Position numbers and translations under genes: made by a program. A DNA stretch of 64,000 nt, taken from contig JBHGNT010000020.1 in the NCBI GenBank assembly GCA_043228905.1, forward strand, positions 12,586,001 through 12,650,000. The letters are read 5' to 3'. Of the stretch, positions 18,123 through 45,056 are shown piece by piece (position 1 is the first letter of the stretch; each line of letters opens with the position of its first letter). This DNA is from Azolla caroliniana (taxonomy: Eukaryota > Plantae > Polypodiophyta). Under the pieces are notes generated by a model, which saw nothing but the letters and a program-made list of their open reading frames with translations, had not been told where the DNA came from and did not search any database.

Positions 18123-20210
18123 AATCAAAATAATGATCGTACATCTCTTGCATGACTTATAAAAACAATGCCCTTTAGATTTGCAATATCATTTTCAATA
18201 TGTCAAAGATATTGCAACGGTGGATCACAAACAACATTAAGTTTACAATCAACTTTGGTTTTGAATGAAATCATGATTTTCACAAGAAAAATGAAAAAGA
18301 CAATGATCAAAATTCCTTGTGAATAGAGAAAAATCTTGGATAGGCATTCTTGGCCTATAGTAGAATTTCTCCACAAATTTGCCAAGTTGAAGAAATTGTC
18401 AGGCATTTTGAGATTACCAACATTTAATGAATGATAATATTGTACATGGCGATTTTGTCTCAAAATGAAGAAGAAAATGATCATTACATCAAAATGAGAA
18501 ATATTTTTCCATCAAATAGAAGTAGAGTATTCATGATGGAATATTTCCACGTTAATGACGAAATCTTCATAAATCAAGAACGTTCACATCCTAGCTTTGG
18601 GTACCAACACAATTAGACACTCTTAAATGCTCTTGGATTCTCAAAAACATTTTAAGAATGCATACCAATAGCAACCTAGAGGACAAATCCATTGTCCTAA
18701 CCTCTAGGTATGTAAAAATTTCCATGACTTACAATAAGGCAGACAAATCTCGTTTCCTAGAATCTCATAAGTTTTAGATTACCTGATTTATCCCCCAAAT
18801 CAAGTTACAATCTTGAGTGTCAATGTGACTACCTTGCTATTGGTACTTTTAAAAAAGAAAGAAAGATACACATTAGTATATTACTTGAAAACTCTACATA
18901 GAGAAAACAGAAGGAGACATTTCATCTCAAATCTATTATAATATACAAATCTTGTCGTTGCCATAGAACATCATCCGAACCCAATAGATCATCGTATTGA
19001 CCACATAGTGTATGGAAAAATAACATCTAGAATTCAATAAGCATAGTGTTGAGATGTATGTCAACATTGTTAAAAATAGAATCACATCTCGTTTTCCATA
19101 TTCTCGAAAGAGCCAACGACGTAATAGTATGCCAAATAATCAGATTTTTAATTATGAACTGTGGAATATAAGAAGGAAATGAGGTGAGAGAGAGGAAGAG
19201 ACATCCACACATCCGATGTAGAGTATACATGCCATGCAAAGAATCAGTGATGATTCTGTGCAGCGGAAGAACTTTGTGTGTGTGTGTTGTGTGGAGAGAG
19301 GAAGAGAGAGAGAGGAAGATACACTTCTAAACAATAAGATAAATGGGGGATGATTAACAAGATTATAGCTAAAGACCTTTCTCTATATTAATAAGCATCA
19401 AGTTACAAAATATCCACAATGAGGTATATATACAACTCATGTGCAAGGGTGCACATGTGTGAGGAGAATATAGGTACACGGTTGTAAGTCCTATATTAAA
19501 TATACTTGGTAGTGGAGGAACTAAAATGTATCCCTACTTACGTACAAGTACAAGATCCTATTTAAGGGTTTAAAAGGTTAACACACTAACTAGATTCTAT
19601 CTAGGTAACTACTAAGTTACATGGTTAACTAAATGGCTAAACTTAGTTGAGCTTGATATCTCAACATGCCACAACCTACCATCATCATCAACATTAAAGT
19701 ACATAACATCACCCACAACATTAGTTACTTTAGCTCCTAACATAACTTTTAAAAGAGAAAAATAACCACACCATATCTGATTACTTGAGGGGCACCATGA
19801 AGCCATAAATTGTCCCAATGCCACTTGCATATCATTACACATAATAGCACCTCCTCGAACTGAATGCATCGATAAAGATTGTAACGGTCGATTCATAACA
19901 TGACATCCCCATGAAAGAACATTACATGTAACTGATTCATCCAAAGAAGCCCAATTTACCCTAGGACAACTACCAAGCAACTCGCATCAGAGAAGACAAT
20001 TACAGGTCAAAGGCTATCTCAACAAGACATCCATTGTCAAAGGCATATTCCGAACCAAAATATTTTTAACAACAGATTAGCTTGTGAGAATTCCATTAAA
20101 AAATCTATATATTGGTAAGGTTGTTTTAAAGAAATGGAAATTCTAAATAAAGGCCCACGTTAATGAGGGTTGCCACACTCCACCTATTGTCGGACATGTA
20201 GTAGACAGTT

Positions 20211-23200
20211 TGTTGAGAAAAACGCTGAATATTGCTCGGCCACAGCCAAGTCTTGAACACTTTGATGAGAATGGAGAACACAGAAATGAGAACTAAAGAG
20301 TGAACACAAGATGTTTACGTGGAAAACCCTAATAGGGAAAAACCACGGGAGCCCACAGACTCCGAACTATCACTATGAAGAGAAGGGGTACAATCAGAGA
20401 CTCGTAGGCAACAATCTCGAGCTCGGTTTCTTCGCCGACCGGCAGTTACAATAGAGTATCGCTTTGTATCTCTCTCTCCCTCTCTGTCGCTCTCTTCTGT
20501 ACAATAGTTACAACAACAATGACAATGACAATGACAACCTTATAAAGTGATTGCCCTAAGTCATATTTATACTTAAATGATCTTAGGGCTATTTACAAAT
20601 ATTTATACTGGGGCAAAGATCTTGTCGAAATCCACTCCTTTCTTCTGTTGAAAACCCTTCACCAGGATCCGGGCCTTGTACCTCGGTGGATTTCTGGTGT
20701 CTCCCGGTTTCAACTTGTACACCCACTTGTTCCAGAGTGCTCTCTTCCCTTTCGCCAACTCTGTTAGTTCATATGTGTGGTTCTCATGCAGGGAATCCAT
20801 CTCATCCTGCATGGCTCTCAACCACTTGCGGCTGTGGGTGTCTCTCTTTGCTTCTTCAAAGCTTTCCGGCTCCCCCTCATTGGTTAGCAACACATGCTCT
20901 GCATCCGGAAATCTCCGGGGGGCTCTTCTCTCTTGGAGAGGATATCTCTATGCTTGGTTTCTGACTGCCGGTTCCTCCGTTTGTTCCTCATCCTCATCCG
21001 ATTTGGGATCTTGTCCGGTTCCAGTGTCTTCTTCTTCTTCTTCTTCTTCGGTCTGTTCTGTTTCTTGTCCATATTCGGCCGGTTCGTCGAGTGTCATCCG
21101 GTTAGCGGCTAGCATCTGGTTTTCAACGAATGATTTGGAGTTCATCACCTTCTCCGACTCCCAGTCGGCAATGGTTCTGTCTTCCATGAAGACTATGTCC
21201 TGACTCCGGAACACCTTCTTGTCAACCAGATCCCACACTCGGTAACCGAACTCATCATCGCCGTATCCAAGGAATATGCATGGCATGGACTTCGGATCTA
21301 GCGTTGCTCTCTTGTCCTTTGCAACATGCACATATGCGAGACACCCAAACACCTTAAGATGACGGTAAGATACATCTTTACTGGTCCATACTTTTTGAGG
21401 TGAGTCTCCTTCCAAGGGTGTTGAGGCTGATCTATTTATCACATAGGTCGCCGTCGTCAGTGCCTCAGCCCAAAACGTCTTGGGTAACTTTGCATGTGCT
21501 TGCATGCACCAAACCGTCTCCATTATGGTCCAGTTCATCCTTTCGCCCCGTTTAGTTCCGGCGTCTTCGACATAGTAAAATCGAGCCGGATTCCCTTCGA
21601 TTTGACCGACAATACTCCTCGAACTGCCCCCGGTATTCTCCTTCATTATCTGCTTGAACCACCTTCAGCTTCCGGCCAGTTTCTCTTTCCATTCTCGCGT
21701 GGAGCTTCTTGAAGACGGATAACACCTGATCCTTCGTCTTCAATGGTGAGACCCATAGCTTCTGGTTGTGGTCATCTATGAACGTCACAAAGTATTGCAA
21801 TCCGGCATGTGACTTCGTGTCCACTTGACACACATCGGTATGCACTAGCTCAAGTGGTGCATTCCGTCTCATCAGTGGTCTTGACCGGAAGGAGGTTCGG
21901 TTTTGCTTGTTGGCCAAGCAATCGATGCACTTCTCAAGTTGCACCTCCTTCACCGGAATGAGGTTGTCTTTGGCAAGTCTCTTCATCCCCTTCTCACTCA
22001 TGTGACACAGTCTTTTGAGCCACATCTCACCGGCAATGTCGGATGCTACGTTCACTTCCTCCCGGCATATCCGTGCATTCATCAAGTACAGTGTGTTGAT
22101 CTTCCGGGCTCGAGCCACTATCAAGCTTGCCTTGCTGAATTTCATAACACCGTTCCGAATGCTATTTGTGTAGCCTTCATCATCTAGCCGATTGGCTAAT
22201 ATCAGGTTCAATCGAACCTCCGGAATGTGTCAGACATCCTTCAGCAGCAATTTGCATCCGGTTGATGTTGCCAACAACACATCTCCTATGGCAATAATTC
22301 GGCATGTGCCTTCATTCCCCATTCGGACACAACCATGATCACTAGTTGTGTAGGATGAGAAGCATTTATGATCCGGTGTTAGGTGAAACGACGCTCCGGA
22401 ATTGACAACCCATGTTGTCTCGACGTCGACAAGGTTTAACTCATTCTCTTCGGTAATGAGCATCAGTTCTTCTTCACTTGTTGCGATCACTGACGTTCCT
22501 TTCCGATCCGGGCCTCTCCGGTCCGAACTGTTTCGGTCTGAACTCTTCTTCGAATTGGTAGTGCCGGTTTCTTTCTCCGTTTAGAAATGCCTGCAGTTCT
22601 TCTGGAAGTGTCTCGGCTTCCCGCAATAGAAGCACATGGGCCTCCCCCTTGACTTCGACCTCATCCCCGATTTGTCCCGGTTTTGGGGACTCTGATACCG
22701 GCCTCTTCCCCGATTGTGGTCATCTTTCGTGACCAAGGCCTTCGGATTAGTTCTGGACTCTCGGTCCTTCTGGTGAGCTTCTTCATCTAGCAAGCTTGAT
22801 TTTACCCTTGCTAGGGACAACTGTTTTCCTTCCAGCCCGGCGTTGCCCAACGTGACAACTAACGTCTCCCAACTATCCAGGAGGGAACCGAGCAAGAGTA
22901 ATGCTAGTACCTCATCAGAGAGAGGTACTTCCAACAAGGTTGCTTGTTGTATCAGCCCCCGGAAGGCATTCATGTGCTCCGCCATACTGAAGTTGTCCTG
23001 GTACCGGAGCCTCACTAACTTCCGGAATACCGAAACCCGATTAATGACATTCTTGTTTTGGAACATGATGCCGATCTTCTCCCAGAGTTCATGAGCCTTG
23101 CTCTCTTCATTGAAGTTGTTGTACAGGCTCATGTCGATGAAGCACCGGATGTATGTCGTCGTCTTCATGTGCATCACCTCCCACACTATGGCGTCGATCT

Positions 23201-23883
23201 TATCCGGTCTCTTGTCCCCGAACTGAATTGGCAACCAAAGATCTTTGACTACCAACATATCCCTCATCTTCGACCTCCACACTAAGTAGTTGGATCCGGT
23301 GAGCTTGAACATGCCGCCAAACGATTCTTCCATTTCCCGTGTTGTTCGCTCTGATACCAGTTTGTTGAGAAAAACACGGAATATGCTCAGCCACAACCGA
23401 GTCTTGAACACTTTGATGAGAATGGAGAACACAGAAATGAGAACTAAAGAGTGAACACAAGATGTTTATGTGGAGGGGAGCCCACAGACTCCGAACTATC
23501 ACTATGAAGAGAAGGGGTACAATCAGAGACTCGTAGGCAACGACCTCAAGCTCGGTTTCTTCTCCAATCGACAGTTACAATAGAGTATCGCTCTGTATCT
23601 CTCTCTCCCTCTTTGTCGCTCTCTTCTGTACAACAGTTACAACAACAATGACAATGACACTGACAACCTTATAAAGTGATTGCCCTAAGTCATATTTATA
23701 CTTATATGAACTTAGGGCTATTTACAAATATAGCCTCAATAGGCTTACTCAAAACATATTTATAGATATGTCTTCTCTTCCGGTTCTCATCAGGTCTCTT
23801 CTGGTTTCCGAATCTCTTCTGGTTCTCACCGGGTCCTCGTTATTCATCACTGGATCCCATTCAGAGAGACCGATTTCCCAACA
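20211..23883 (-). mobile_element. Internally deleted Ty1/copia (Tnt1/Tork-like)
   Basis: 5' LTR 23363-23883; PBS TGGTATCAGAGC (minus, 23348-23359); gag with CFYCGKPRHFQKNC, protease, integrase and RT start; fused at ~20602 to a partial LTR (20211-20601). No matching TSD found. Confidence 0.9.
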
Positions 23884-24762
23884 GCTTATGCATCATTAGC
23901 TGACTCCAAACACCTTGCATTGGCAATATAGCTCTACATACAAATCTAGAGAGCAAAGCCTTACATTGTGATTCCGGATCCACCAACCCCAACATTTTGT
24001 CGCGGAGCAATCTATACTGCCCAAGCTAGTTTAGGCCTTTTATCCTGACATGTTTTTCCTCCCCAAATGTAATTGCAAATAAGACCTAGCAAACAATTTA
24101 GTAGTTTAATATACCAAATAATTGCAAGAAGAACTTGATTAGCTACAAGTACACGATCTGCGAATGACAGGTCAACCGAATCCCAAAGCAACAATTTTCT
24201 CATTAGCTTTAAAAGTAGAGGAGCAACTAACACATCCGCATTAACGTGAAGTTCCACTTGGTAGCCCAAGTAATGAATAGTGATTCCATTAGGAACCCAT
24301 TTGAATTCCTGCGAAGGCATCGAAGTAGGCAATGGATTTTGCGATATCCAAAACCTAAGAGATTTATGCCAATTTATCTTTGCTCTAGAGGCCAAGAAGA
24401 ATTCCTCCACCATTAATGTCACAGACACACCAACCTTGGACTTAGATGAAGCACGGATGACAAGGCTACGAGGAACTTAAGAAGCTAGGAATGACATTAG
24501 AGCATGAAGACAGAGATGAAGAACGAGACAAGATGGAATTGAACAAGAATACTAGATTGATGTGTCAATGACTGGTGTTGAATCCCTTGAAAGGGACCAA
24601 TGAGGTTACAAGTATTTATACTGTGAGTCGAAGTACATGCATTAAAATATTCTAGAGAATATTCTGGAAACCTCTAGAACCTTCTAGTTCTAGAACTTTC
24701 TAAAAACTCCTAAAACTTGAAAAAGATAACCTACTAAAATATACATAACATGACCATGTATT

Positions 24763-24827
24763 TGGATGTATAAGTTAGAACATAACACTTGACTATAATA
24801 CAAGAGGTCAAGAGTTCAAATCTTGAC
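24763..24827 (+). other. tRNA-like (Pol III A/B-box) module in LTR U3; second copy at 26257-26321
   Basis: A-box-like TGGATGTATTGGTTAG (26257 copy), CTTG..CAAG stem, AGGTC, then hairpin GTCAAGA-GTTCAAA-TCTTGAC with a B-box-like loop. Confidence 0.6.
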
Positions 24828-24934
24828 ATGATTATTGTCATGTCCGTGACGTTATCCTCCCCTTTACAGTTGCCTTTTCGAAAGCATCATTGTGCAAGGG
24901 TGAGTTTAAGTACAAAACCAAAGTGGATTGATGA

Positions 24935-25235
24935 CTCAACGAGTCCTCACTAGAAATAGGAACACGAACGAATGTGAGCGACCATGTGAGGTCCTCAAAT
25001 TGGTGACTGAGCGAGTCCTCACCAGAAATAGGAACACGAATGAATTGAGCGATCATGTGAGGTCCTCAATGGAGACTGGAACATTGATGGGCGTGAGCGA
25101 CCATGTGGTCCTCACCAGGAATTGGAACATCGACAGGCGTGAACAACCATGTGCGGTCCTCACTGGAAATTGAAACACCGATGGGCGTGGGCGACTATGT
25201 GTGGTCCTCACTGGGAACTGGAACACCGATGGGAG
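24935..25235. repeat. Degenerate ~40-60-bp tandem repeats inside the non-coding LTR element
   Basis: Recurring gagcgaccatgtg(a/c)ggtcctcac..gaa....gaacac units. Confidence 0.8.
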
Positions 25236-26141
25236 AAGGAATGCAGGTGAAGCGGCCGACTCGATTTCTTCTATCATGAGAGGGTAAATAGTCGAAGTTG
25301 ACCCAAAACGCGACATAAAAACTAGCACTAGTGAGAAACCGTTATGATCCCCACCAAGAAAGTGAACGATTGTGACCCCCACTGGAAATAGAAGGTGAGT
25401 GATAGAAATCAATCCTTGTCAAAGGGAACTTGAGCAAAATGGGAACCAAAAGGAAAATGGAGTGCATGCGCGCAATGATTCAATCCCCACCGGGAAATTG
25501 AACAGTTGTGACCCCACCTGAAGGTGAGCGATCAAAATCAATCCTCGCCAAAATCGTGATGCAAAATGATATCTATAGATGATGACAATGACAATGAAGA
25601 GGGAGGAACAATGATGATAATGAAAGACCATGCAAAGTAGTGTTGGCAACGATGAAAGGTTGGACGAAGTAGTGTTGATGAAGACATGAAGAGGACTTGT
25701 TGAAAAATGATGATGTCGAAGACGAGGCAGTGAAGAAGAAGAAGATGATGATGATGATGAAGCTTCTCTACAAGGAACGAATGTGGCTATTGTGACAATG
25801 GCGTCTCTAAAACCAAGGATGGTGATGACGATAATTCTGGAAGCAAGGACAATGACGATGGTAACTCTAGAAGCAAGGGCGATGATGAAGACGGGTGATG
25901 CTTCCAATTGGAAGGGATTCAAACTGTCATGGACACACCAACCGCGGACTTAGACGAAACACATATGACAAGGCTACGAGCAACTTAAAAAGCTAGGAAT
26001 GACATTAGAGCTTGAAGAATGAGAGAAGATGGAATTGAACAAGAATACTAGATTGATGTGTCAATGACTGATGTTGATCCTTGAAAGGGATAAAGGAGGT
26101 TACAAGTATTTTTACTGTGAATCGAAGTACATGCATTATAA

Positions 26142-26195
26142 TATTCTAGAGAATATTCTAGAACCCTCTAGAACCTTCTAGTTCTAGAACTTTCT
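26142..26195. promoter_or_regulatory. Heat-shock-element-like nGAAn array in LTR (second copy 24648-24700)
   Basis: GAAtaTTCtaGAA...GAAccTTC...TTCtaGAActTTC lies just upstream of the minus-strand TATA position (intact TATAAAT at 24614-24620 in the other LTR). Confidence 0.65.
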
Positions 26196-28889
26196 AAAAA
26201 CTCCTAGAACTTGAAATAGATAATCTGCTATAATATACATAACATGACCATGTATTTGGATGTATTGGTTAGAACATAACACTTGACTATAATACAAGAG
26301 GTCAAGAGTTGAAATCTTGACATGATTGGTGTCATGTCTGTGACAATTACTTGTAATTTTCTTAAATTATCATCATAACTTCGACATAAATTGTAGTATC
26401 ATCAGCAAACTCGGAATCCAAGAATTGTTGCTGCATTGAGGGCAAAGGCGGACCCTTAAGAGAAACTTGAGAAGACTTTAAATACATTGAAAATGTTTCC
26501 ACTACTAGCAAAAACAAAAATGGGGCCAATGGACAACCTTGACGTATAGAATGTAAAATAGAGAATTTTCTAGTTTGCCCACCAGCTACCAAGACCGAAC
26601 TAAAAGCCTCACGATACAACGAAGCTACAACCCTAATCCATTGGACAAGAAAATCTAACCTAAAAAACGAACCTGCCATGAAGTCCCAATTAACTCCATG
26701 AAGCTACCTTGCTATTGGTACTTGGATGGATGTTGAAGCCATAAATGTTCAATCAATGCTACATTGAATCTAGAATGCAGGTATATCCATCCACATGGTA
26801 CTCACATATTAGGCATTCTTAAACTTGTAATCCTGGCATCCTTAAACTTGTATCTTTGCATGGGAATCACCCACATAAATTATCAACTTGATAAGAAGGG
26901 TAAAGCTAAATGGAATTTTAAGGCATATTACCTTTCAAAAGGACTAACTTATAATACTTAGACAAACTAATAATAAGGATGGAGCTTCCCATAGCCTTCA
27001 TCCATGGAACTAGTAATCCATAAGGTCAATACAAATACCTTTTGTCGGTGTTCATTTCTTGTACCAAAGAAATGATTGGTTAGCATCCATCAATAAAATT
27101 GTATAGGCTATAAAAACCCAAGAAAATGCATTGAAGTTTTGGAGTTGATAGAGTTTCTCAATTGCATTAAGGTAACAAGAAGAATCTCAAAGATTTGAAG
27201 GAAGATGTTGGTTTAATAGAACTTAAGAGATGTTCACTAATATAGGAGAGTGCTTTTTAGTTAATAAGGTGATATATCTAACTTTTGAAATGGTATTGTT
27301 GGTTGGTGGTGTGGAAGGTTGTAAAAGATTATTTTCGCACATGTGATAGAGATAAAGTTAGACCAACATGCCGATCGGCCACATCAATTTTAGCATTCCT
27401 CGCCCATTTCCTGACCTTAATTTGCTTCATCAATGTCCATGGATTTCCTTGATGAACCACCAACATCTTATCAACTTGATAACATTATTTTTGTAGTTGC
27501 ACCATAAACCATGTGGGTCACAACTTGTCTTTATGGTTTTGGTAGACATTATTTTCCGCCACATGCTCTTTTTCTTCTTAAAATCCTTGTAATATCTACA
27601 TACGAGGACAATAGATTGTAAGTATCGACCTCTTTTATCAATACAAAATTTGGACATTTAGCCATTATTATGCATGATCTTTGTCGTTAGGTAATCTTAA
27701 GTCCTATAAGTTGAGATAGACTTTGTTGCATATTCCTTGTGTATGGTCTTCGAAGTAATGTGTGTTTATTACGATGATTCACTATTGTTACAAACCACAT
27801 TTGTCATGCAATTTGTGTTTGGACACATTTGTGGCGTCTTCTTGATTCATCACTTATAATTGTGTTTTTTGTTAATAGATTTTCTATTTCTCGTTATAGT
27901 TGTAGCTTATTGAACCAATAAAAGACAATGCATCAAACAATCCTTCGTTCCTGAACATGATGTAATGCATGAGTTTTGAGTATTGGTTAATGCTTGACAT
28001 GAGTATGAGGATGCCAAAACAGTTTGTACAAATGTTATTTTCTCTCTTGAGTTTTTTAAAAAGTTGCTTGTTAATGCTTAACAAGTATGCTAGGATCTAA
28101 ATGTTGTACTAAAACACAATGTTGAGACCTCCATGAGAGTGTGGAAAATGGCGACCTTTATCTGATGAATAATATCAAGATATCTACATTCCATGAGCAT
28201 GAACAACATCTTAACAAAGATAGAGTTTGGACACATATTTCTCCAAAAGTGGTTGTATATATAAACTTTTTTGCATGTTGGACATCGTCATTGTCATGCC
28301 AAGTGAGCCTCTTGTTGGAGTGGAGGATTTAGAACTGCCTTGTGATTCTTAATCTTAAGGTTTGTTGTTAATCTTGGGTTTCTTAATAGAGAAAAACTAG
28401 TTATAATTGGTGGCATGGGATCTACATAGCATGGTTGGTCAAACATTGAATCACCATTAGTATGTAAGCTAAAGGATTTTGATGACTTTTGGAAAGTACA
28501 TTGATCTATTCATGGCTTGGATGAACACTATCATATCGAGGCGTCCTCTAGAATTGTATATTATGAGAGAGACATCCAATATTTTAGGGAAGTAAAAACT
28601 GAACTCTAATTTTTCTAGACAACTTACTCTCAAAGAACATATCCTTATACACATTGGTGCCTTGTAAACTTTTAGTATTGTAACATTTCATAGTAAACTT
28701 CTTGAACATCAAGAGAGAATCATCAACTATAACATATGGTGGGTATCATGATATGGCAAGACTCAAACCCATGACCTTATGTTATATGGGTCAAGCTCTT
28801 GACCATTATACCATCTATTATAATACGTAGGATATTATTTTCATTTAAGTTTTATTATAGGAAATTAATGTATTTTCCAGATTTCTCTG

Positions 28890-28934
28890 GAACATTCTAG
28901 AAGCTTCAGGATTACTCCTGAGAACACTATAAAA
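28890..28934 (+). promoter_or_regulatory. Perfect 4-unit heat shock element plus TATA box in the chromovirus LTR (HSE copy at 35277-35294)
   Basis: GAAcaTTCtaGAAgcTTC at 28890-28907; TATAAAA at 28928-28934. Confidence 0.75.
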
Positions 28935-29041
28935 GAAGGCATTAGGCATTATTTTGAACCAAATTGGTTCAACGCCAGTCTTAAGACTCATAGCCCTTTT
29001 GTACTTACTCTTCACATAATATATCCTCTGTTATCATCATC

Positions 29042-29090
<49 letters not shown>

Positions 29091-29215
29091 CTCGCTATCT
29101 CTCATCCTCGTTATCTCTCTCTCTCTCCTCTTCTCTCTTCCTCTCTCGGGAGTCTCACGCAGTCCCGTCCTCTTAGTACTAATAGTACTTCCCTTTTTTA
29201 AGTACTAATTCTCTC

Positions 29216-29391
29216 TTGTTCCAAGGCAACAAATTTTTCTTTTAGACATTGTAGCTCGGAGAAAACAGATTGATATGCTTGGGCGCTAACAGTAGCCATA
29301 GTATAGTAAAAAGGGTAGGAGGATGAAGAAAAACGACAAGTAGACTTGAGGGAAAATTGGTTCAAACTATCAGGAATAGTACTAAAACAGA
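29216..29391 (-). other. 176-bp inversion containing the 5' LTR end, PBS and first 28 gag codons
   Basis: The reverse complement restores the LTR end matching 39406-39430, PBS GTTTGAACCAATTT, and ATG MATVSAQAYQSVFSELQCLKEKFVALEQ in frame with ENQRLIGDLQQ at 29392. Confidence 0.93.
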
Positions 29392-32300
29392 GAAAACCAA
29401 CGATTGATAGGGGATCTGCAACAAATCGCTCTCAAAAAACAACAAACACAGCAACAACATGGGGAGTTAGCGTTACGGGTACAACAACTCGAAGTAGGGT
29501 TGCAACAACAAGGATCAAGTCCCCAAGGATTTCATAAAGAGCCCAAGATTGGACTTCTTGTGAAATTTGATGGAACGCGATCACAATTCATGGGATTCCT
29601 TAATCAGGTACGCTTAGTCATCCAAATGCATCCTTCTCGATACCCATTGATGCATCCCGAGTCGGCCTAATAGGCACGTTGTTTAGTGGCTCAGCCTTAG
29701 CATGGTTCGCTCCGCTTCTAGAAAAACAATCGCCCTTGCTTAATAACTTTGAAGACTTTATTAGTGAGTTTAAAGCCTGCTTTGGAGATACCGACAACAT
29801 CCGGACAACGATCAACAAAATCCGACGATTGCGTCAAGGCGATCGTCCAGCCTCTGCCTACGTGGCGGATTTCCCTCTACTCGCCTGAGATATCTCTTGG
29901 GATGATCAAGCACTAATAGAGCAGTTTCGCTATGGCCTGCGAAACGATGTCAAAGATTTACTTTTAACCTTCCCCGAAGAACCAAAGTCTCTTACGGAGG
30001 CAATTAGTCAAGCGGTCCAATGCGACAACCGCCTTTTTGAACGGCATTTGGAACGTCAATTACAAATACCACGCTTTAGGGCGGAGCCCACATACGCCTC
30101 AATTGTGGCTAAACCGTTTGCACGCGACGTACCTCAAGCAAATACTTCGACATCGATGGAGATTGACACCATGCGTCTACGTGACCCATTATTGGAAGAA
30201 GAAAAACAACGATGACGTGCAAATCGATTATGTCTTTATTGCAGTGGACCAGGGCATATTGCAATCAATTGTCCCCATAGGCCAAGAAGACAGGTAAATC
30301 AAATTGTAGCCTGTACTAAACCCGAGTCAATTCTTCCCTTAGGAGTATCTAATAGTATTAATAATACTAATAGAGTGTCTGATAGTATTAATAGTACTAA
30401 TAGCCCAAGTATCTCAAATAAATTTGAAATCCTTAGTCAATTCGATGAAGAGTTAAACGATTGAGTCCAGCCAAAATAGGAGCCGTTCTGTACAACCCAT
30501 TAGTGGTTCCATTCCCTCCAAGCAAGTTAGCAATGTGTTCCTAGCCCAAGTCATGGTTAGTACTAAAAGTACTCCCCAAGTACATGTCCTAGCACCTCAA
30601 GATTGTGGAGCTAATTCCTGTTTCATGGATCGAAATTTTGCCCAAGCTTCTCAGATATCCTTAAGAAAACTTCCGTGCCCCACATCTGTAGTAGTCATTG
30701 ATGGTCGTCCCATTGCTTCCGGGAATATTGTAGAAGAGTCAGAACCCATTCAAGTTGTCCTAGGTAGTTTTGTGTGTGTAGTATCATTTAATATAATTAG
30801 TAGTCCAGAGCATCCCATTATCCTGGGATTACCTTGGTTTGAATTACATAATCCCAACATAGATTAGAGAACAAGAGAAGTCCGATATCGACAACCCCAA
30901 GAATCTACTCATCGAGTTTCGACCATTTCACTCCATCAATTATGCAAAGAAGGACACAAGGAGGCAATGTTCCTATTTGCAATATCAGTACATCCTTCCA
31001 GCACTATTAAGGAGGAATCCCTAGTGCAACGTCCGACAAAATATCATCCTTATGCCGATGTATTGGACAAGGTAAAAGCCGGTACTCTTCCTCATCATCG
31101 TCCCTATGATTGTCCCATCGATTTACAACCAAGAACAGAGCCACCATGGGGACCAATTTACAACTTGTCACCCACCGAGTTAGAAGTCCTTCGAGCCTAC
31201 ATAGAGGAGAACTTGACAAGTGGGTTTATTCGTCATTCGAAATCTCCAATCAGTGCACCCATCTTCTTTGTCAAGAAGAAAGATGGCTCACTTCGTCTCG
31301 TCGTTGATTACCGCAGCTTGAATAAAGTCACCATTCGGAATAGGTATGCACTTCCTCTTATATCAAGTCTTTTAGAGCGAGTTAATGGTGCCAAGGTTTT
31401 TACAAAAATTGATCTACGAGGAGCGTATAACCTCGTGCAGATCCGACCGGGAGATGAATGGAAGACCGCCTTTCGCACGCGGTATGGGCATTTCGAATAT
31501 ACTGTTATGTCGTTTGGTCTAACCAATGCACCTACAGTCTTCCAACACATGGCAAATGATATATTCAAAGAACTCTTGGATATCTGTTTGATCATCTATC
31601 TGGATGATCTATTGATTTATTCGAAGACCTAGGAAGAGCACGATTCTCATGTACTATTAGTACTAAAACGATTCCGCGAGAATGGTCTTTATGCCAAGCT
31701 AGAAAAATGTAGCTTTGACTGCAAGCAAGTGGAATTTCTAGGCTACGTCATCTCCTCAAAGCGCATCTCCATGGATCCAGCTAAAGTCCAAACTGTGCTA
31801 GAGTGGCAAATTCCACGGTCGGTATGAGATGTACAATGTTTTCTAGGTTTTGCTAACTTCTACTGCAAGTTTATACAGGATTACTCGAAGATTATTTTAC
31901 CTCTCACACAACTTACGAAGAAGGGACAAACATTTCTTTGGACCAATGAAGCGGACATGGCTTTTCGGCATCTTAAGAACGCCTTTACATCAACTCCTAT
32001 TCTAGCACAAGTGGATACAAACAAACCATTCATCATGGAGGCCGATGCATCGGATTTCGCCCTAGGTAGCATCCTTTCTCAACAAGGAGATAAAGAAAAG
32101 TTACATCCTGTGGCTTTCCATTCGCGCAAATTCGATGCCGCAGAAATCAACTACGAAATACATGACAATGAGTTATTAGCCATCGTGGATTCCTTTGTGC
32201 AATGGCGGTATTTCTTAGAGGGCTCTCCACATCAGGTCATCGTCTTTAGTGATCACAAAAATCTTGCTTATTTCCAGAACGCTCAGGTGCTAAATTGACA

Positions 32301-33371
32301 GCAAGCTCAGTGGGCTCAATTCCTCACGTGTTTTGACTTCAAAATCACATATCGACCGGGGAAGCAGCAAAGAAAAGTAGATGAGCTATCACGACGTTCA
32401 TATCTTGCACCTTGTCCTGGTGATCCAGCGTTTGATAATCAAAAGCAAGTAATCTTGGGACCAAGACGATTGCACACAACACAGATTTTTCACACCCCAA
32501 TGGATTCCCGGATTACCGATGCCATACGTGCGAACTTGAAGATAGACAGTTTTGCTCAAGACATTCTGGCGCACATTGATACCTCTTGGGCATCCTGTTC
32601 CCAATCTCAACAACCAAGTATGGACTACCGAAAATTCGAACATCATGATGGTTTGTTATTCTTTAAAAAGCTTGTATATGTCCCCGATTGCTCCTATCGC
32701 CTTCAAATCGTCCAAAATTGTCACAACACCCATATGGCAGGACATTTCGGTAGTACTAAGACGTTGGACCTCGTTCAACGATCTTTTTGGTGGCCCCATA
32801 TGTGACGTTTTGTCAACGACTACGTTCGGACTTGTGATGCTTGCTGCCGAGTAAAGATGCCCCGACACCATCCATATGGCTTGTTGGAACCCTTACCGAT
32901 TCCAAGTAAGCCGTGGCAGTCTATTTGTCTTGATTTTATCACAGATCTACAGGTGTCGAAGGGGTTCGATGCTATCTTAACCGTCGTCGATCGATATACT
33001 AAGATCACACATTTTGTGCCGTGTACTAAGGCCATCACTAGTGAGGAAACCGCCGCCCTTGTCATGCATGAGGTATTTCGGCATCACAACCTCCTAGACA
33101 GTATCATCAGTGACCGAGGACCTCAATTCGTCTCCAAATTTTGGCAGCATCTCTTCGAGATGCTTAAGGTCTCTTACAACTTGTCCTCCGGCTACCATCC
33201 CCAGACCAATGGGCAGGCGGAACGAACAAACCAAACGCTGGAACAATATCTCCGGTGTTTTCTGAGTTATCAACAGGATGATTGGACCGAGATTCTCCAC
33301 TTTGCGGAGTTTGCATATAATAATGTTGTTCCCTCCTTGACTCGGGTCTCCCCATTTTACGCTTATACCAG

Positions 33372-34333
33372 TGTTGCGGTATTCCGCGGGTATGTGTAGG
33401 ATCTTAGGCGGGACCGCGGGGGTCTTGAACTAGGGAGACAGATGGTAGAGTCCTTATGCTTTGCAGGCTTCGGTCCAGAACCGGCTTCCGGCTCCAACGA
33501 AGGTAGGGTTTCACAAAAGGACGGCTCACCGCGAATATGGACCCGACTCAAATATGTTACAAGGAAGATAGATATACACTAACATGAATATATATAACAA
33601 GAGTTTACAACAAGACGGTTACATGCCCCGAATCTAGTGGCTATTACAAACAATCGGCTAATACATCAAGATAAGAATGGGAACTGGCGAAGGGGAGTCA
33701 AGTGGGCCGCCGGGACCGCGATGTCCACCGTTGGTCACACCCCGAAGACGATGGAGTGTTCCCGTCTCGAACCGGCCGCCACACAAAACGCTCTCCATCG
33801 AGGAGAGGAAGCCGAATCACCAAGTGCCGCCACCGGAATGCCTAAAGCTGTCGTTGTAGGAACCCCCAAACCAAACCAAACTCTCACACGAAGAAGAGAG
33901 AGTAACACCCGGAGACCCCAAGTACATAAACCCTAACTCGCACGAACTCTCTCAAGAAGAAGAACCTAAAGAGAATACTAACTTCCACCCAAAAGAGGGA
34001 ACCAAACCTATCAGAAAATGAAGAAGAAGACTCAAATGAAACCCTAAACGAAATAGAGTGAAAAGACCAAAATGGAAACCCTAAGAGAACAAGAATAAGA
34101 TGTAGAGGAAGAACACTACCAAACCCTAGACCTAAGTGGTATACCCTCCTAACTCCAAAATGGGCAACCCTTTAACAAAGGGTGCTCCTTTCCTTTTATA
34201 GAACAAGGAGAGGGATGCGTTACAATGTGGGATAAATACTCCCCCTTATTCTATACACCGTTTCCTACTATACATGTGCAACATGTGCCCATTCCACCCC
34301 TGTTTCACACTATAGCCGGAAATCTTCACGACA
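33372..34333 (-). mobile_element. Solo LTR (962 bp) of the 4-bp-TSD gypsy group, inserted in the chromovirus integrase
   Basis: TG..CA termini similar to the LTRs at 52586 and 55352; 34140-34240 is the reverse complement of ~55490-55590; TSD CCAG/CCGG; removing it restores YAYTGSHP. Confidence 0.88.
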
Positions 34334-34544
34334 CCGGTTCTCATCCTCCTTGGTTGGTTAGTGATCGACACCCCGGAGCTACCTACCAATCCTCATGCCG
34401 AGGCGTTTCCTACTATACATGTGCAACATGTGCCCATTCCACCCTTGTTTCACACTATAGCCGGAAATCTTCACGACACCGGTTCTCATCCTCGTTGGTT
34501 AGTGATCGACACCCCAGAGCTACCTACCAATCCTCGTGCCGAGG
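34259..34544. repeat. ~143-bp tandem duplication spanning the solo-LTR/integrase junction
   Basis: cgtttcctactatacatg...gccgagg at 34259-34403 and 34404-34544. Confidence 0.92.
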
Positions 34545-35135
34545 ATCATTTGGAGAGGCTACACAAGATCCAGATAGATATCTCTACTCATCTTCGTCAT
34601 GCTCAACACAACACACAGAAGACTTATGCGGATCGTCATCGGCTTCCCTCCTCTTTTGCCATCGGAGATCGACTATGGCTCTTACGTCGTCACATCAAGA
34701 CTACTCGACCGTGCGACAAGTTGGATTATCGACGACTCGGTCCTTTCCGTATTACTAGTAAGGTTAATGATGTGACGTTCCGCCTTGATCTCCCTCCGCA
34801 TCTTCAGATACATCCGGTTTTCCATAGCTCTCTTCTTGAACCTTATAAAACAAACACTATTCCCGATCGTGTTACACCACCACTACCCCCGCTTGAGTTG
34901 GAAGCCGGCCCGGAGTATGAAGTTACTGCCGTCCTCGATTCCAAACTTGTTCGCAACAAACTTTATTATTTGGTCGATTGGCTCGGCTATAGTCCGAGCG
35001 AACGTACTTGGGAACTTGTCGAGCATGTCGCCAATGCTCAGGATCTTCTTGCTGAGTTCCACCGAAAGTATCCGGACAAACCCGGTTCGCAATTAGCGCC
35101 GACTCGTTCCACTCGTCGTCTTAAGGGGAAGATAG

Positions 35136-35205
35136 TGTCATGGCAAGACTCGAACCCATGACCTTATGTTATATGGGTCGAGCTCTTGACCATTACACCA
35201 TCTAT
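35136..35205 (-). other. tRNA-like (Pol III A/B-box) module at the start of the chromovirus LTR; copy at 28744-28817
   Basis: Minus strand reads AGA-TGGTGTAATGG-TCAAGAGCTCGACCCATATAACATA-AGGTC-ATG-GGTTCGAGTC-TTGCCATGACA, with tRNA-like A-to-B box spacing. Confidence 0.65.
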
Positions 35206-35428
35206 TGTAATACATAAGATATTATTTTCATTTAAGTTTTATTATAGGAAATTAATGTATATTCCAGATTTCTCTGGAACATTCTAGAAGCTTCAGGATT
35301 ACTCCTGAGAACACTATAAAAGAAGGCACTATGCGTTATTTTGAACCAAATTGGTTCAACGCCAGTCTTAAGCCTCATAGCCCTTTTGTACTTACTCTTC
35401 ACATAATATATCCTTTGTTATCATCATC

Positions 35429-35476
<48 letters not shown>

Positions 35477-35479
<3 letters not shown>

Positions 35480-38400
35480 ATTTTCTTTCTTTCTGTGCGT
35501 CTGTTTCTCTCCCTCCATCATTATCTACGTTCTATAGCTCCCTGGAAAGCTCTTTCAGAGAGATTTCTAACGAATGTTTATTTGCTAAATTCCGTTGCCG
35601 GAGTGAGGAGTTATGAGCATTTTCGTCCGCGGCCCTCTCGTGACCCCTCAAACTCAAGGTAGATTTTGAAACCCTAAATCGATTGAAAGGTACATTCTAC
35701 TTCTTCTATCATTTTATTAATAGTAAATATGCCAAGAGGAGTAAAAGACAATGATGATGTGATTGAAAGCCCAAACAATCAAATGCATACATTGTCAATG
35801 GAGAAGATCGCAACTATGTATATCTCATTTCAAGAGACAATGATGCATATGCAAAGTGAATTGTATGCTTGTAAGGAGAGGGAATTAACTCTTCAACATA
35901 CATTGGAAATGCAAAAGTTAGAGATGAAAGCTACTACATGCAATGAAGAACATGACTATTCAAATGCAAGATAATAGGATGCCTAAAATCGAAAGAAATT
36001 TTTTGAGTCTTGAAGCAGAAAAATCAGAGATTTTAGTGAAGGCAAATGCCGAAATAAAATCTACAATTGAAGGGAAGGAAGATGTGATCATGACAAGGTG
36101 GAAAGATGTTCTCTTGAAAGAAACACCAAAAATCACGCAAAAACATCCAAATACCATGGATGTGTTAGATGTAAAGGAGCAATATGAAATCGAAATCGAA
36201 AGAATAATATTGTCATTAGAGGTATGCAAGAGAATGAAATAGAGAATGCATTATCTCTTGGACAAAATATTACGAAATTCTTTGAGGATCACTTTGCTAT
36301 GCGAGATGTTATTGTATATGCCTCACATCGGGTTGGCAAAAAGCAACAAGAGGGAAAGACATCTCGAGCTATTGTTTGTACAATCCTCGATGAACGTAAA
36401 AGGGCAATGATTCTAGATAGTAGTAAGGTGTACTTAAAAGGGCAACAAAGGATAAAACTCCACAAGAGCAAGATTCGATATGGCCTGACTCCAAAGGGGA
36501 TATTGGGCGTGCTGGGATAACATGTATCTACCATGAGAGCTTAGATAGTTCTATCAAAGTATGCAAATATGATGGCTATAAGAGATACATATGGATAGAG
36601 GTTAATTTGGGGAAAGAGAAGTTGTATATAGTTGCATGTTATATTCCTCACAAAGACTCAAACTACTATAGTAGGTTTGGGTTAGATTGTGATGATCCTT
36701 TTACAGAGTTATGCTATGATATACTTTCATTTGAGAAGCTTGGTAAAGTTTTAATTATGGGAGGCTTCAATGCAAGAGTTGGAAATTTCCAAAATGTGGA
36801 GACATTTGAAGAAAATGTAGTAAAACATTGTCTATTGCGTGACTCAGAGGATTATGTCATGTCAGATTATGGAAAACTTTTGATACATATGCTAAATTGC
36901 ACAAAATTGATTATCCTAAATGGAGTAAAGGCATTCACATTGACAAACGTGCTCACATGTTTACCATCCTCAGGTGGAGGAAGTGTGGTTGATTATGTAT
37001 TAATGTTGGCATGTGATCTATCATTGGTGAATGTGTTTAAAGTTGGTTCGCTATCTCCGGACTCAGACCACACGCCATTGTACTTAGAGCTTGCAATTAC
37101 ACATTCCACTAGATGTCGTGAAGGGAAAGACGAAAAGAGATGTATCATCTGACCTTGCTACGAAGAGATGCTAGACTATGTACAAAGGTTATATATGCAT
37201 GAAGGTGTGGCTCCTATGGTTGAGAAAATTGAAACTCCATGCACTACATGTATCGATATTGAAGATATCAATAAGGGAATAAAGAAGATGGGAAGTGGGA
37301 AAGCAGCAGATTCAACCTAGGTCTCAAGTGAGCTTTTAAAATGGACAATGGCACACCCTCGTCATTGGATAATGACAATTTTAGAGCAAGCTATAAAACA
37401 AGGATTTCCAAATGATTGGCTTATGAATTGGATTAAACCAATATTTAAAGGTGGAGATAAGAATCAAGGAGCAAATTATCGTACAATAATGGTGAGCTCA
37501 ACTATTGCTAAATTATATAGTACTATTATGGAGCAAAAGATAAGCACATGGGCTAAGAGTACAAGCAAAAGAGCACTTGGGCAAGCCGGATTTAGACCAA
37601 AACACTCCACCATGGATCATTTGGTCACATTAAAAGTGATCATGGAAGAGAGTCGACTACAAGGAAGAACACTTTATTGTTGTTTTGTTGATTTCAAGAA
37701 AGATTTTGATATCGTACCACGAAGTGAGCTTTGGAATAGAATGGTAGACATTGACATGCCATTAGAGTACCGAGTTGCGGTTGCACGCCTATATGAACAA
37801 GTTAAATGCCAACTAAAAATGGATAGTGGATTCTCAAAGAGCTTTTTAAGTAACATGGGGGTCAAGCAAGGATGTCCACTATCACCCACACTCTTTGGCT
37901 TATGTATTGATAAATTAGAAGAAGTGGTGAATAAGGTTTCAAGAGAAGAAGGATTGAATGACCCAATTTGATGCAACATGTTATCTTATTGCTTCTATAT
38001 GTAGATGATGTGGTACTCTTCTCATATGATGTTGATAGTATGCAACATTTACTTGGGGTATTAGAAGAATTTTGCCATAGTAGTGGACTAGCAGTGAATG
38101 TGGAGAAAACAAAAATGATGGTAGTGCAAACCATCCAACCTCATCATTACCCTATGATCACATATAAAGGTGAACATATAAAATTTGTTCAAAGCTTTAA
38201 ATATCTTGGTATTGATGTACCTGCCACAAATAAATGGAGTGCATGCTTTGATTCTAGACTCCAAGCCGGTTGGAAATCATATTACCTTTTGGAGAACCAA
38301 TGCAACCAAAGTGATACTTGTGGATGGGAAGTAAAATTAATGTTGTTCAATGCCATGGTAACTCAAGTATTGCTTTATGGAGTAGAAGTATGGGGTGACG

Positions 38401-39329
38401 CCATCTCTCTTAATGCATGGAACGAGATTGAGAAAATTCAAAAGATGTTTTTAAGGAGGCAATTAGGAGTTAAATGCACTACCTCTTACCAGGTTATGCT
38501 CTTGGAAACGGGTGTTCGACCCATAGAACTATTGGCACTCCAAAGAGTATATAAATACATTACAAAAGTCAAGAATATGCCGAATCATCAATTACCACAT
38601 CTTTCTTGGAATGTTGGATGTAAGCTACAAAAGAATCATAAAAGTAAGATTCTCTCATCTGGTTGGGTTGTTGACATAAAGAAATGGTTTAGACGATGGG
38701 GTGTGGATGATCTTTTAGAGATTTCAGGCAATGCTATGCAATATGTAATGATTGAGGAAAGGTCGGTGGAATCATTAAGGATGAAGTGGGAGGATGCTAA
38801 GAGGACAAAGCTAGAATACTACATTGCAAATGTCAACCCTGAATGTTGGTCTCAATATAAAGCAAGAATGTCTATTGATCGTATCCAACCTTATCTCATT
38901 ACCAATATGAGTAGGAATGCTCGTAGAGCCCTTACACTACTTCGCACTCGATCTCACAAGTTAGGTATTGAAGTTGCATCATGGTATCAAAATGTAACGA
39001 ATTTGAAGACATGTAAAGTATGCAATGAAGGCATGGTAGAGGATGAATGTCACTTGCTCTTCACATGCTCGACATATAGTGCAATTTGTTCAAGATATGT
39101 TGACATACTAAGAGGGAGTGATAATTGAAGATCCATACTTAAGACACCACCTAGAAGGTTGAGCTCATATGTGTATGCTTTATTAACACATAGAGACTTT
39201 GTGGTTCAACATATGAATACCCCTTCTTAGGAAGGAGACATATATCAAGAACACATGTATACTCTGGTCCCATAGGTCAAAATTGGCCTCTTTATGGACG
39301 ATTCTAATTCTAATTCTAATTCTAATTCT
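35477..39329 (+). mobile_element. Near full-length two-ORF LINE (RTE-X/L2-like) inserted in the (CT)n tract of the chromovirus 3' LTR
   Basis: Coiled-coil ORF1 fragments 35729-36520; AP endonuclease (MGGFNARVG, SVVDYVL, SDHTP); RT (KQGCPLSP, LLYVDD); CX2C..EDE.H.LF.C motif; (AATTCT)n tail; LTR resumes at tcctctctcgggagtc. Confidence 0.93.
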
Positions 39330-39666
39330 TCCTCTCTCGGGAGTCTTACGCAGTCCCGTCCTCTTAGTACTAATAGTACTTCCCTTTTTTTAGTACTAAT
39401 TCTCTCCCTGTTTTAGTACTATTCCTGACAGTGGGAAGGTATTCTAGTTTGGTTTTCGTCAATCATATCTGATCCCCAATAACGATAGAAACATATATCT
39501 ATGATGTGATTTAAACAACTCCAACTTTCTTAAAAATGTTACGTTGTGAGATAATATTCACACCTTATTTCCATAGGTTATAAATATTACTATTATTAAA
39601 TTGTTGGCATGGTCAATGATCTTGGATTCTCCTAGATGTCTTCCATGTGTGTCTATACTATATCTA

Positions 39667-40364
39667 TGTTACGGGCATGACCATATAATATCCCATGGTA
39701 AGTTGTATCATAGTATTCTACACACAAGGATAACTTGTGAGGGTTAACCGCGAGTTTAGAGAAGGGCGGATTACTTTTAATCCTAGGGATTGTTCAACAA
39801 CCCATTAAGGCCAAGTGTGAACTTGCTTGGGGGCCTTAGGTTCGTTTATAAATAGGAGGTCTAGCTACCCTCATTTGAGACATTATTGACTACGTCGAGA
39901 CTCTGATCTTGTGGTGATAAACTCTTGTAGCGAGCGTGCTAGCACCAGGTACGAGCCGTTGCCACAACGGTGGTGTGGGACGCCGATTGAGGTTTGAGTC
40001 CATCTCGACCCCTTCACTTGGGGGTGGTCGGGTGGATCAACACCCTTCTTTCTCTCTCTTCTCTATTTTCCTATCTATTATTTCCTTATATTTTGCTTAC
40101 ATTAGGATAAAGTTCTAACCATTGGTATCAGAGCCTCGACGTAGTCGATAATATATCAAATGAGGGTAGTTAGGCCTCATATTTATAGCCAGACCTAAGG
40201 CCCCTAGGCAAGTTTACACTTGGCCTTAATGGTTGTCTCAATCCCTAGTATCAAAAGTAATCCTCCCTACATTAAACCCTCGGTTAACCCTCACAGGTTA
40301 TCCTCGTGTGTAGAATACTACGATACAACTTACCACGAGATATTATATGGTCATGCCTGTAACA
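39667..40364. mobile_element. LTR-derived fold-back element: LTR + tRNA-iMet PBS + inverted copy of the LTR's first ~240 bp
   Basis: TGTTAC..GTAACA ends; TSD ATCTA (39662-39666 and 40365-40369); arms 39667-39907 and 40127-40364; TGGTATCAGAGC at 40123-40134. Confidence 0.9.
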
Positions 40365-44598: not shown

Positions 44599-44825
44599 GA
44601 ACCGGATGATGAAGACCCGGTATCGGAACCGGATGATGAAGACCCGGTTACGGAACCGGATGATGAAGACCCGGTTTCGGATCCGGATGATGAAGACCCG
44701 GTATCGGAACCGGATGATGAAGACCCGGTATCGGAACCGGATGATGAAGACCCGGTGTCGGAACCGGATGATGAAGACCCGGTTTCGGATCCGGATGATG
44801 AAGACCCTGGCTACGGAGCCGGATG
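44599..44825. repeat. 27-bp tandem repeat (~8 copies) in copia LTR U3
   Basis: Head-to-tail GAACCGGATGATGAAGACCCGGTATCG units with no spacers. Confidence 0.95.
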
Positions 44826-45011
44826 ACGAATGTACCCGGAGAGAGATCCGGATGCGGGGACATATTTGTGAATATGTTTGCCAAGGGCCCTCGAGGCTAT
44901 ATTTGTAAATAGCCCGAAAGTCATATGTGTATAAATATGACTTAGGGCAAACAGTTTGTCGTTGTTGCTCATTTTTCTGTTTTCCACTTAGAGGGAGTGA
45001 AGTGAGAGCAG

Positions 45012-45056
<45 letters not shown>

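What the first reader, a model, noticed from the sequence alone, without database searches (positions are those of the whole stretch)
24417..39430. Shared LTR design in two dissimilar families: outward tRNA-like module, HSE, TATA, self-priming 5' end
Seen: the chromovirus LTRs and the LTRs of the non-coding element have little obvious sequence similarity but the same order of parts from the U3 end: an antisense tRNA-like A/B-box cassette, nGAAn heat-shock arrays, TATA, and ~32 nt later a palindromic site ending TTCAAC that is complementary to a GTTTGAA-type PBS. Their PPTs are also alike (AAGGGGAAGATAG and AAGGGGAGGATAA). Inference: a heat-inducible, tRNA-independent retroelement system with an autonomous helper lineage and a non-coding dependent, both retaining a Pol III/TFIIIC cassette. 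I do not know of this combination being described.
Basis: partly seen in the sequence, partly recalled or inferred. Interest (0 to 1): 0.85.

Follow-up and report, generated by a model that had tools for sequence, protein, structure and literature searches.

The report
Backward tRNA promoter inside chromovirus LTRs
A family of self-priming plant jumping genes and a non-coding relative carry, at the outer edge of their terminal repeats, a backward-facing piece of a tRNA gene whose promoter boxes are kept while its tRNA fold is lost; it likely acts as a protein-binding boundary that would shield the element's own, in some families predicted heat-responsive, promoter.

Summary
The coding element is a Tcn1-clade chromovirus, so self-priming is already published for the clade (PMC6317226). 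The published SM-Tcn1 has the same R-site and PBS signature. Primer and PBS co-vary across families.

The new part is an outward-facing tRNA-type A/B-box cassette at the start of U3. It scores 12-14 of 14, with tRNA-like spacing (33-34 nt), in 5 of 7 autonomous families whose U3 start is visible, spanning 66-91% RT-RNase H identity. None of 28 distant LTR starts reach that score. The cloverleaf is not kept.

The non-coding element's LTR is closest to another Tcn1 lineage (L005), not to the neighbouring chromovirus. Its boxes are decayed. HSE arrays are real but occur in only 5 of 9 families. Heat response, TSS and Pol III or TFIIIC binding are untested.

Best reading: a TFIIIC-bound boundary shielding the Pol II promoter. 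Ten literature searches found tRNA-like LTRs only in Helenus TRIMs (non-autonomous; sense-oriented in the entries I saw).

The parts
24417..26345 (-). Element A: non-coding LTR element, 1929 bp, TSD ATTAA (24412-24416) / ATTAC (26346-26350)
   Evidence: internal 1073 bp has no tblastn hit to 10 related elements and no Pfam hit in the two internal ORFs scanned; internal region repeated in 4 of 4 runs
24417..24851 (-). A 3' LTR
24852..24864 (-). A polypurine tract AAGGGGAGGATAA
24763..24822 (+). A 3' LTR outward tRNA-like cassette: decayed A box 24763-24774, AGGTC 24805, B box 24814-24822
   Evidence: 11/14, not significant alone; homologous to L005
24657..24700 (.). A 3' LTR nGAAn (HSE) array
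   Evidence: 2 perfect three-unit elements, 0 of 1000 shuffles
24613..24620 (-). A 3' LTR TATA box
24577..24588 (-). A predicted 5' end of R (self-primer), 11 nt complementary to A's PBS
25912..25924 (-). A primer-binding site GTTTGAATCCCTT
25925..26345 (-). A 5' LTR (cassette 26257-26316 on +, HSE array 26151-26194, damaged primer site about 26073-26082)
28744..39430 (+). Element B: Tcn1-clade chromovirus with nested insertions, TSD GTGGG (28739-28743 / 39431-39435)
28744..29215 (+). B 5' LTR up to the inversion (cassette on - at 28760-28813, HSE 28890-28907, TATA 28928, primer site 28961-28973)
29216..29395 (-). Inverted block holding the U5 end, the PBS GTTTGAACCAATTT (29367-29354) and the gag start; edges approximate
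29396..35122 (+). Broken gag and pol (PR, RT, RNase H, integrase, SH3, chromodomain about 34916-35068 with Y/W/Y cage)
   Evidence: Pfam; translation
33372..34478 (.). Unrelated solo-LTR-like insertion in the integrase (TG...CA, 4-bp flanks CCAG/CCGG)
   Evidence: contigs skip 1111 bp here; similar to 55491-55590
35123..35135 (+). B polypurine tract AAGGGGAAGATAG
35147..35200 (-). B 3' LTR outward tRNA-like cassette: A box 35200-35190, AGGTC 35164-35160, B box 35155-35147; 86% AT in the 50 nt upstream
   Evidence: (14/14, 0 of 500 shuffles)
35277..35294 (.). B 3' LTR four-unit HSE
35315..35321 (+). B 3' LTR TATA box
35348..35360 (+). B predicted 5' end of R (self-primer), 12 nt complementary to the PBS; 3' arm of a U3/R palindrome
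35477..39326 (+). LINE inserted in the (CT)n tract of B's 3' LTR (RT hit, tandem-repeat tail; 'RTE-like' is recalled)
39327..39430 (+). Remainder (U5) of B 3' LTR
   Evidence: 97.5% to 29136-29215

Best explanation
These are a Tcn1-clade chromovirus and a non-coding relative whose terminal repeats carry a backward-facing tRNA-type promoter cassette, which likely binds TFIIIC and would act as a chromatin boundary shielding the element's own promoter.

Shown in sequence: the order att - outward B box - A box - AT-rich stretch - optional HSE array - TATA - self-primer - U5 - PBS; conservation of both boxes and their spacing across divergent autonomous families; loss of the cloverleaf; primer/PBS covariation.

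From established knowledge: Pol II starts about 32 nt after TATA, the first 11-12 nt fold back on the PBS, and RNase H cuts them off as the primer, as in Tf1. A group I chromodomain steers integration to heterochromatin.

Inferred, untested: a tRNA gene or SINE head entered U3 in reverse in an ancestor of the clade and was kept as a DNA-level TFIIIC/TFIIIB site, back to back with the Pol II promoter. It would keep U3 open against silencing spreading from the flank, so HSF (in HSE-bearing families) or other factors can activate the element. Element A likely arose from an L005-like lineage and is likely copied in trans by Tcn1 proteins.
For: Textbook (recalled) A+B score 12-14/14 with a 33-34 nt gap in B, L002/L028, L003, L004 and L005; 0-10 of 500 shuffles reach these scores; antisense score at most 11 in 28 of 28 distant LTR starts. 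These families differ by up to 34% in RT-RNase H and lie on both sides of the deepest sampled split of the clade, while the spacer between the boxes is unalignable. The AGGTC-N4-GTTNRA core occurs 9 times in 681 kb, all antisense at a U3 start (motif derived from these sequences). Loose-end variants in B's sister subfamilies change mainly the degenerate A-box positions and keep AATGG. The 50 nt where TFIIIB would sit are 74-86% AT against 60-68% for whole LTRs. The canonical T-stem is no better than shuffled (62.5% paired, 350/500), which points to DNA boxes rather than a tRNA fold. tDNA barriers work in fission yeast regardless of orientation (PMC2040200 abstract). A chromodomain steers integration to H3K9me (PMC4600332 passage).
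Against: No binding, chromatin or RNA data. The cassette is dispensable: absent from L007 (sister of L005), L008/L011 and SM-Tcn1. In A it is decayed (11/14, gap 39). Only 7 autonomous families were seen, mostly single collapsed metagenome contigs. Within-family variation does not single out the boxes: the B box has no variant at 12% or more, but neither does the AT-rich 35204-35234, and two A-box consensus positions vary by 9-23%. A shifted 7-bp stem around the B box is 77% paired and could explain AGGTC at RNA level, though its covariation is not significant (54/500), and B's U3 start folds strongly (z -5.8). I saw no paper showing tDNA barriers in plants.
Confidence: 0.4

Rival explanations
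1. The cassette is a true Pol III promoter whose product matters. From the 3' LTR it would make an antisense RNA across U3, the PPT and the integrase end; from the 5' LTR it would read into the host flank. This would tune silencing or copy number.
For: Both boxes, tRNA spacing and an AT-rich upstream stretch are present. Read-through to the first T4 would be 314 nt in B and 1045 nt in L002.
Against: Predicted length is not conserved: 30, 37, 70 and 88 nt in L004, L003, A and L005. No conserved fold.
Confidence: 0.2
2. It works on the genomic RNA, either as a hairpin just behind the PPT or as a site that pairs with the D and T loops of a cellular tRNA (like the Ty3 3' PBS or the HIV-1 U3 tRNA-like motif; both recalled, papers not obtained).
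For: Antisense orientation at the start of U3 is what tRNA pairing needs. The shifted stem is 77% paired. B's U3 start folds at z -5.8.
Against: These elements self-prime, so no tRNA is anchored at the PBS. Conserved runs are only 4-6 nt, separated by variable bases. Genome-sense folding ranges from z -4.9 to +1.2. Stem covariation is not significant.
Confidence: 0.15
3. Neutral relic: an old SINE or tRNA insertion in an ancestral LTR, simply inherited.
For: Lost in at least two lineages and absent from SM-Tcn1; decayed in A; weak or no Rfam tRNA scores.
Against: Near-perfect boxes and fixed spacing persist while the spacer and the rest of U3 are unalignable across families 66-91% identical in RT-RNase H.
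Confidence: 0.15
4. Integration bait: the integrase recognises Pol III factors (as Tj1 and Ty3 do), so the cassette draws new copies onto existing LTRs as safe sites.
For: Self-priming Tj1 integrates just upstream of tRNA genes (PMC4600332 passages).
Against: No tRNA gene in the window near A or B. The listed joints and loose ends at B's cassette showed no insertion hotspot (table cut). An intact chromodomain cage suggests heterochromatin targeting.
Confidence: 0.1

Closest known systems
Tcn1 clade of chromoviruses (REXdb chromovirus|Tcn1; SM-Tcn1; Tf1/sushi group)
   Same: Group I chromodomain, overlapping gag/pol, 5-bp TSD, self-priming PBS. SM-Tcn1 has the same TCAACACCAGTC R signature and TGACAGTTTGA LTR/PBS junction; RT stretch about 122 of 157 residues identical to B, counted by eye.
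   Different: SM-Tcn1's U3 has tandem repeats and no A/B cassette (read by eye). The passages read in PMC6317226, PMC2864245 and PMC3350952 describe no tRNA-like U3 module or HSE for Tcn1.
Helenus / Ajax / Cassandra (TRIMp3; PMC10886601, parts 1-4 of 6 and supplement hits read)
   Same: tRNA-derived A and B boxes inside LTRs, conserved boxes without a functional tRNA, a non-autonomous member.
   Different: Helenus are TRIMs of 311-1263 bp with tRNA-primed PBSs, and the boxes read in the sense direction in the entries I saw, thought to be the element's own promoter. The paper argues that autonomous partners should not share such LTRs. Here the boxes face outward, occur in autonomous elements, and sit upstream of a TATA Pol II promoter and a self-primer.
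Tf1 (S. pombe) and Tj1 (S. japonicus)
   Same: First 11 nt pair with the PBS and are cut by RNase H; Tf1 transcription rises on heat (PMC7175516 passages).
   Different: No tRNA-like module in their LTRs in the passages read; Tj1 targets host tRNA genes rather than carrying one.
Heat-responsive LTRs such as ONSEN (recalled; seen only in the search listing) and P. patens RLG2
   Same: HSE arrays in the LTR (ONSEN, recalled); heat-induced Gypsy expression in a moss (RLG2).
   Different: ONSEN is a tRNA-primed Copia (recalled). RLG2's clade and LTR were not examined.
tDNA / TFIIIC chromatin barriers (PMC2040200 abstract)
   Same: A/B-box DNA acting as a boundary independent of orientation.
   Different: Host loci in yeast, not carried inside a retrotransposon LTR; not shown here.

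Membership tests
Tcn1 chromovirus (element B) | Gypsy order PR-RT-RH-IN with a C-terminal chromodomain | tested here: met
   Pfam
Tcn1 chromovirus (element B) | Group I chromodomain with aromatic cage | tested here: met
   Y, W and Y present, read by eye (cage positions recalled)
Tcn1 chromovirus (element B) | Self-priming PBS, no tRNA PBS | tested here: met
   12-nt complementarity; family-specific covariation; biochemistry not tested
Tcn1 chromovirus (element B) | 5-bp TSD, TG...CA ends, gag overlapping pol | tested here: met
   clade values; the 5' LTR starts TA in this copy
Tcn1 chromovirus (element B) | RT phylogeny with named Tcn1 references | tested here: inconclusive
   The tree held no named reference; similarity to SM-Tcn1 judged by eye only (about 78% over 157 residues)
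Helenus / TRIMp3 (element A) | Non-autonomous, two LTRs, PBS and PPT | tested here: met
Helenus / TRIMp3 (element A) | TRIM size (screen under 1000 bp; longest Helenus 1263 bp) | tested here: not met
   A is 1929 bp
Helenus / TRIMp3 (element A) | tRNA-derived Pol III promoter oriented to transcribe the element | tested here: not met
   Cassette is antisense; sense-strand score 9-10/14; a TATA promoter is present
Helenus / TRIMp3 (element A) | tRNA-primed PBS | tested here: not met
   PBS is complementary to its own R
Functional tRNA gene | Cloverleaf detectable by ARAGORN or Rfam | tested here: not met
   ARAGORN calls appear only at relaxed thresholds, with many spurious ones
Pol III type-2 promoter / TFIIIC site | A box and B box at tRNA spacing | tested here: met
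   for B, L002, L003, L004, L005; inconclusive for A
Pol III type-2 promoter / TFIIIC site | TFIIIC binding or Pol III transcription | not testable with these tools
   no raw RNA or ChIP data
Heat-responsive retrotransposon | Three or more inverted nGAAn units upstream of TATA | tested here: met
   A, B, L002, L005, L021 (consensus recalled)
Heat-responsive retrotransposon | Heat-induced transcript or extrachromosomal DNA | not testable with these tools
   only contigs were available

The most novel reading that the evidence does not exclude
A clade of heterochromatin-targeting chromoviruses carries its own tDNA-type insulator. A captured, reversed tRNA promoter at the LTR edge recruits TFIIIC/Pol III and keeps a stress-inducible Pol II promoter open inside heterochromatin, so each of the many LTR copies is a portable chromatin boundary with an outward Pol III promoter.
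Probability: 0.3. Interest if true: 0.8.

Novelty: new variant of a known kind. Interest (0 to 1): 0.55.

Why it matters
How chromoviruses that insert into heterochromatin are ever transcribed is an open question, and a built-in TFIIIC cassette gives a concrete, mutable answer. Sister families with and without the cassette (L005 versus L007), and with and without HSEs (L002 versus L003/L004), are natural controls. It would extend tRNA-derived LTR modules from non-autonomous TRIMs to autonomous elements in the opposite orientation, against the expectation stated in PMC10886601. It would also imply many TFIIIC sites scattered through these genomes. Self-priming and HSEs by themselves are not news.

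Tried and rejected
No whole genome was held, so no genome-wide family mining.

No RNA holder listed; all laid runs were contigs, so no TSS, strand or expression could be read.

The TATA...TCAACRCCAGT pattern scan of viral contigs returned 120 stretches, taken as chance matches without inspection; L081-L200 were left out of all counts. The viral protein scan gave one distant locus. The genome-contig scan gave 11 loci: none had the cassette core; L201, L202 and L203 showed self-priming PBSs; L201's U3 start is missing.

Whole-window Rfam search: no tRNA. A functional or cloverleaf tRNA was rejected. One search had a misregistered structure string and is superseded. The 'GGT to AGGTC spacer' column picked the wrong GGT for L002 and L004 and was not used.

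Convergent design was rejected because of LTR homology. B as A's direct parent was rejected. No coding remnant was found in A. The host gene search did not name the organism; 'non-seed plant, likely moss' is inferred from Tcn1 distribution.

Papers on the Ty3 bipartite PBS and the HIV-1 U3 tRNA-like motif were not held, and the search returned none. Earlier scan findings: nothing shown.
Full report
Setting. The window is a nest of transposons (Copia, Gypsy, LINE). A non-seed plant, likely a moss, is inferred from the published range of Tcn1 (PMC6317226 passages).

Anatomy. Element A (24417-26345, minus strand) has 421 and 435 bp LTRs that are 89% identical, a near-perfect 5-bp TSD, a PBS, a PPT and 1073 bp of interior with tandem repeats and no coding hit. 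Its interior and LTRs are covered at depths far above the single-copy flank in 4 of 4 runs (summed contig depth, not a copy number), so it is likely a family. Element B (28744-39430) is a broken chromovirus with a perfect TSD. Its U5 end, PBS and gag start are inverted, a solo-LTR-like piece sits in the integrase, and a LINE splits the 3' LTR.

Related elements. A metagenome scan with an alignment of 19 Pol proteins kept the best 80 of 586 confirmed matches (79 loci). Nine loci group with B in an RT-RNase H tree (FastTree support 0.955) and form 7 autonomous families: L002/L028, L003, L004, L021 (81-86% to P0005, B 91%) and L005, L007, L008/L011 (65-68%). The tree held no named reference.

Self-priming. 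In each family the sequence starting about 30-33 nt after TATA pairs best with its own PBS: 11-12 nt for A (3' LTR copy), B, L002 and L004 against 3-8 nt across families; 8 nt for L021 and 5 nt for L008. Folding the predicted 5' RNA of L002, L004 and L007 gives the same 11-12 bp primer/PBS duplex with one bulge. SM-Tcn1, for which its authors found no PBS, shows the same signature with about 14 complementary bases (by eye). Self-priming is published for 83% of 1500 Tcn1 elements and the Tf1 mechanism is described in PMC7175516 (passages). This part is known.

The cassette. Using a recalled textbook consensus (A box TRGYNNAnnGG, B box GTTCRANNC), the antisense first 130 nt score 14 (B3, L004), 13 (B5, L002) and 12 (L003, L005) of 14, with gaps of 33-34 nt; 0-10 of 500 shuffles reach these scores. 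L007, L008 and L011 score 8-10, and A scores 11 with a 39-nt gap (63-95 of 500). Controls were 28 LTR starts from distant loci. One search examined 53 loci and found a start in 33; I removed 4 clade members and 2 doubtful starts and added L006 by hand. All 28 score at most 11 antisense; one scores 12 sense. So 5 of 7 autonomous families with a visible U3 start (B included; L021's is missing) have it, on both sides of the clade's deepest sampled split. That means ancestry with at least two losses, or LTR exchange. The spacer is unalignable and the canonical stems are not kept. The upstream 50 nt are AT-rich, as for plant tRNA genes (PMC13578239 and PMC13437025 passages), though those papers say this is weaker outside angiosperms. 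Against: within-family variation is uninformative or slightly adverse, and a shifted stem may explain part of the conservation.

HSEs. Perfect three-unit elements: A 2, B 2, L002 5, L005 3 (0 of 1000 shuffles each) and L021 1 (7 of 1000). None in L003, L004 or L008, and none seen in L007 (by eye). That is 5 of 9 families. None occurs in the five other LTR-like stretches of the window that were tested. L003, L004 and L007 carry other repeats instead. U3 is therefore modular, with cassette and enhancer varying independently. Heat response is predicted, not shown. In P. patens RLG1 is heat-repressed and RLG2 heat-induced.

Who helps A. A's LTR is colinear with that of L005 (z about 17, against about 4 for B). 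L005 comes from another sample, and its presence in this genome is not shown. PBS class and PPT are shared across the clade, so any member could mobilise A in trans (inference).

Mechanism. The geometry is a back-to-back pair: Pol III factors over LTR positions of about 10-110 facing out, HSE at about 140-160 and TATA at about 180 facing in (B). Because boxes and spacing are kept and neither fold nor predicted transcript length is (30-1045 nt to the first T4), a DNA-level role is likeliest. A barrier fits a chromodomain-guided element. This is inference: 0.4, against 0.2 for a functional antisense RNA, 0.15 RNA-level, 0.15 relic and 0.1 bait.

Novelty. Searches found no report of an antisense tRNA-type cassette in autonomous chromovirus LTRs. 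The library lacks most subscription papers and Repbase. PMC10886601 notes that 'not a few' Repbase LTRs resemble tRNA parts but followed up only TRIMs.

Papers seen: PMC10886601 parts 1-4 of 6 and supplement hits; PMC6317226 passages and supplement rows; PMC2864245 passages, section 6 and supplement 3; PMC7466625, PMC4600332, PMC3350952, PMC7175516, PMC13437025, PMC13578239 and 10.64898/2026.03.01.708851 passages; PMC2040200 abstract and outline.

Verdict: real feature, new variant of a known kind, function untested; interest 0.55.

Noticed in passing
window 35342-35360; L003, L004, L005, L007 U3/R junctions: The self-primer is the 3' arm of a palindrome whose 5' arm lies in U3 and changes with it (z -2.5 to -5.8 in 5 of 7 tested; weak in A and L002). 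Only the 3' copy of R has both arms, so the hairpin would mask the second primer copy from competing for the PBS (inference).
   Followed up: partly
PMC2864245 supplement (SM-Tcn1, about 385-405 and 497-511): SM-Tcn1, reported as having no PBS, has a clear self-priming match of about 14 nt (read by eye).
   Followed up: partly
window 35136-35200: B's cassette is itself a long inverted repeat, with an inverted near-copy of the B-box arm after the A box (z -5.8); not shared by the other families.
   Followed up: partly
L003:3500-3620, L004:4190-4260, L007:1852-1950: HSE-free families carry repeated GCCAAATGGC and CATGCA motifs upstream of TATA (the latter resembles the RY element, recalled), suggesting different inducing signals.
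   Followed up: no
window 39667-40364: A 240-bp inverted repeat (86%) flanks an LTR end and a TGGTATCAGAGC PBS: a rearranged LTR or foldback.
   Followed up: no
window 55954-63260: Young GC-rich non-chromovirus Gypsy (LTRs 99.7% identical, long ORFs, TGGTGAACCCGACGTG PBS), nested among related copies.
   Followed up: no
window 15648-23788 and 42322-50008: Several related, internally deleted or nested Copia elements in both orientations.
   Followed up: no
window 12131-14086: A 651-codon open frame with internal repeats and a coiled-coil-like half; no Pfam hit, one 66% unnamed homologue and a weak plant hit. Likely a host exon.
   Followed up: partly
L201, L202, L203: Self-priming Tcn1-like retrotransposons sit in contigs of prokaryote MAGs, likely eukaryotic contamination; L201 has nGAAn-like repeats.
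   Followed up: partly
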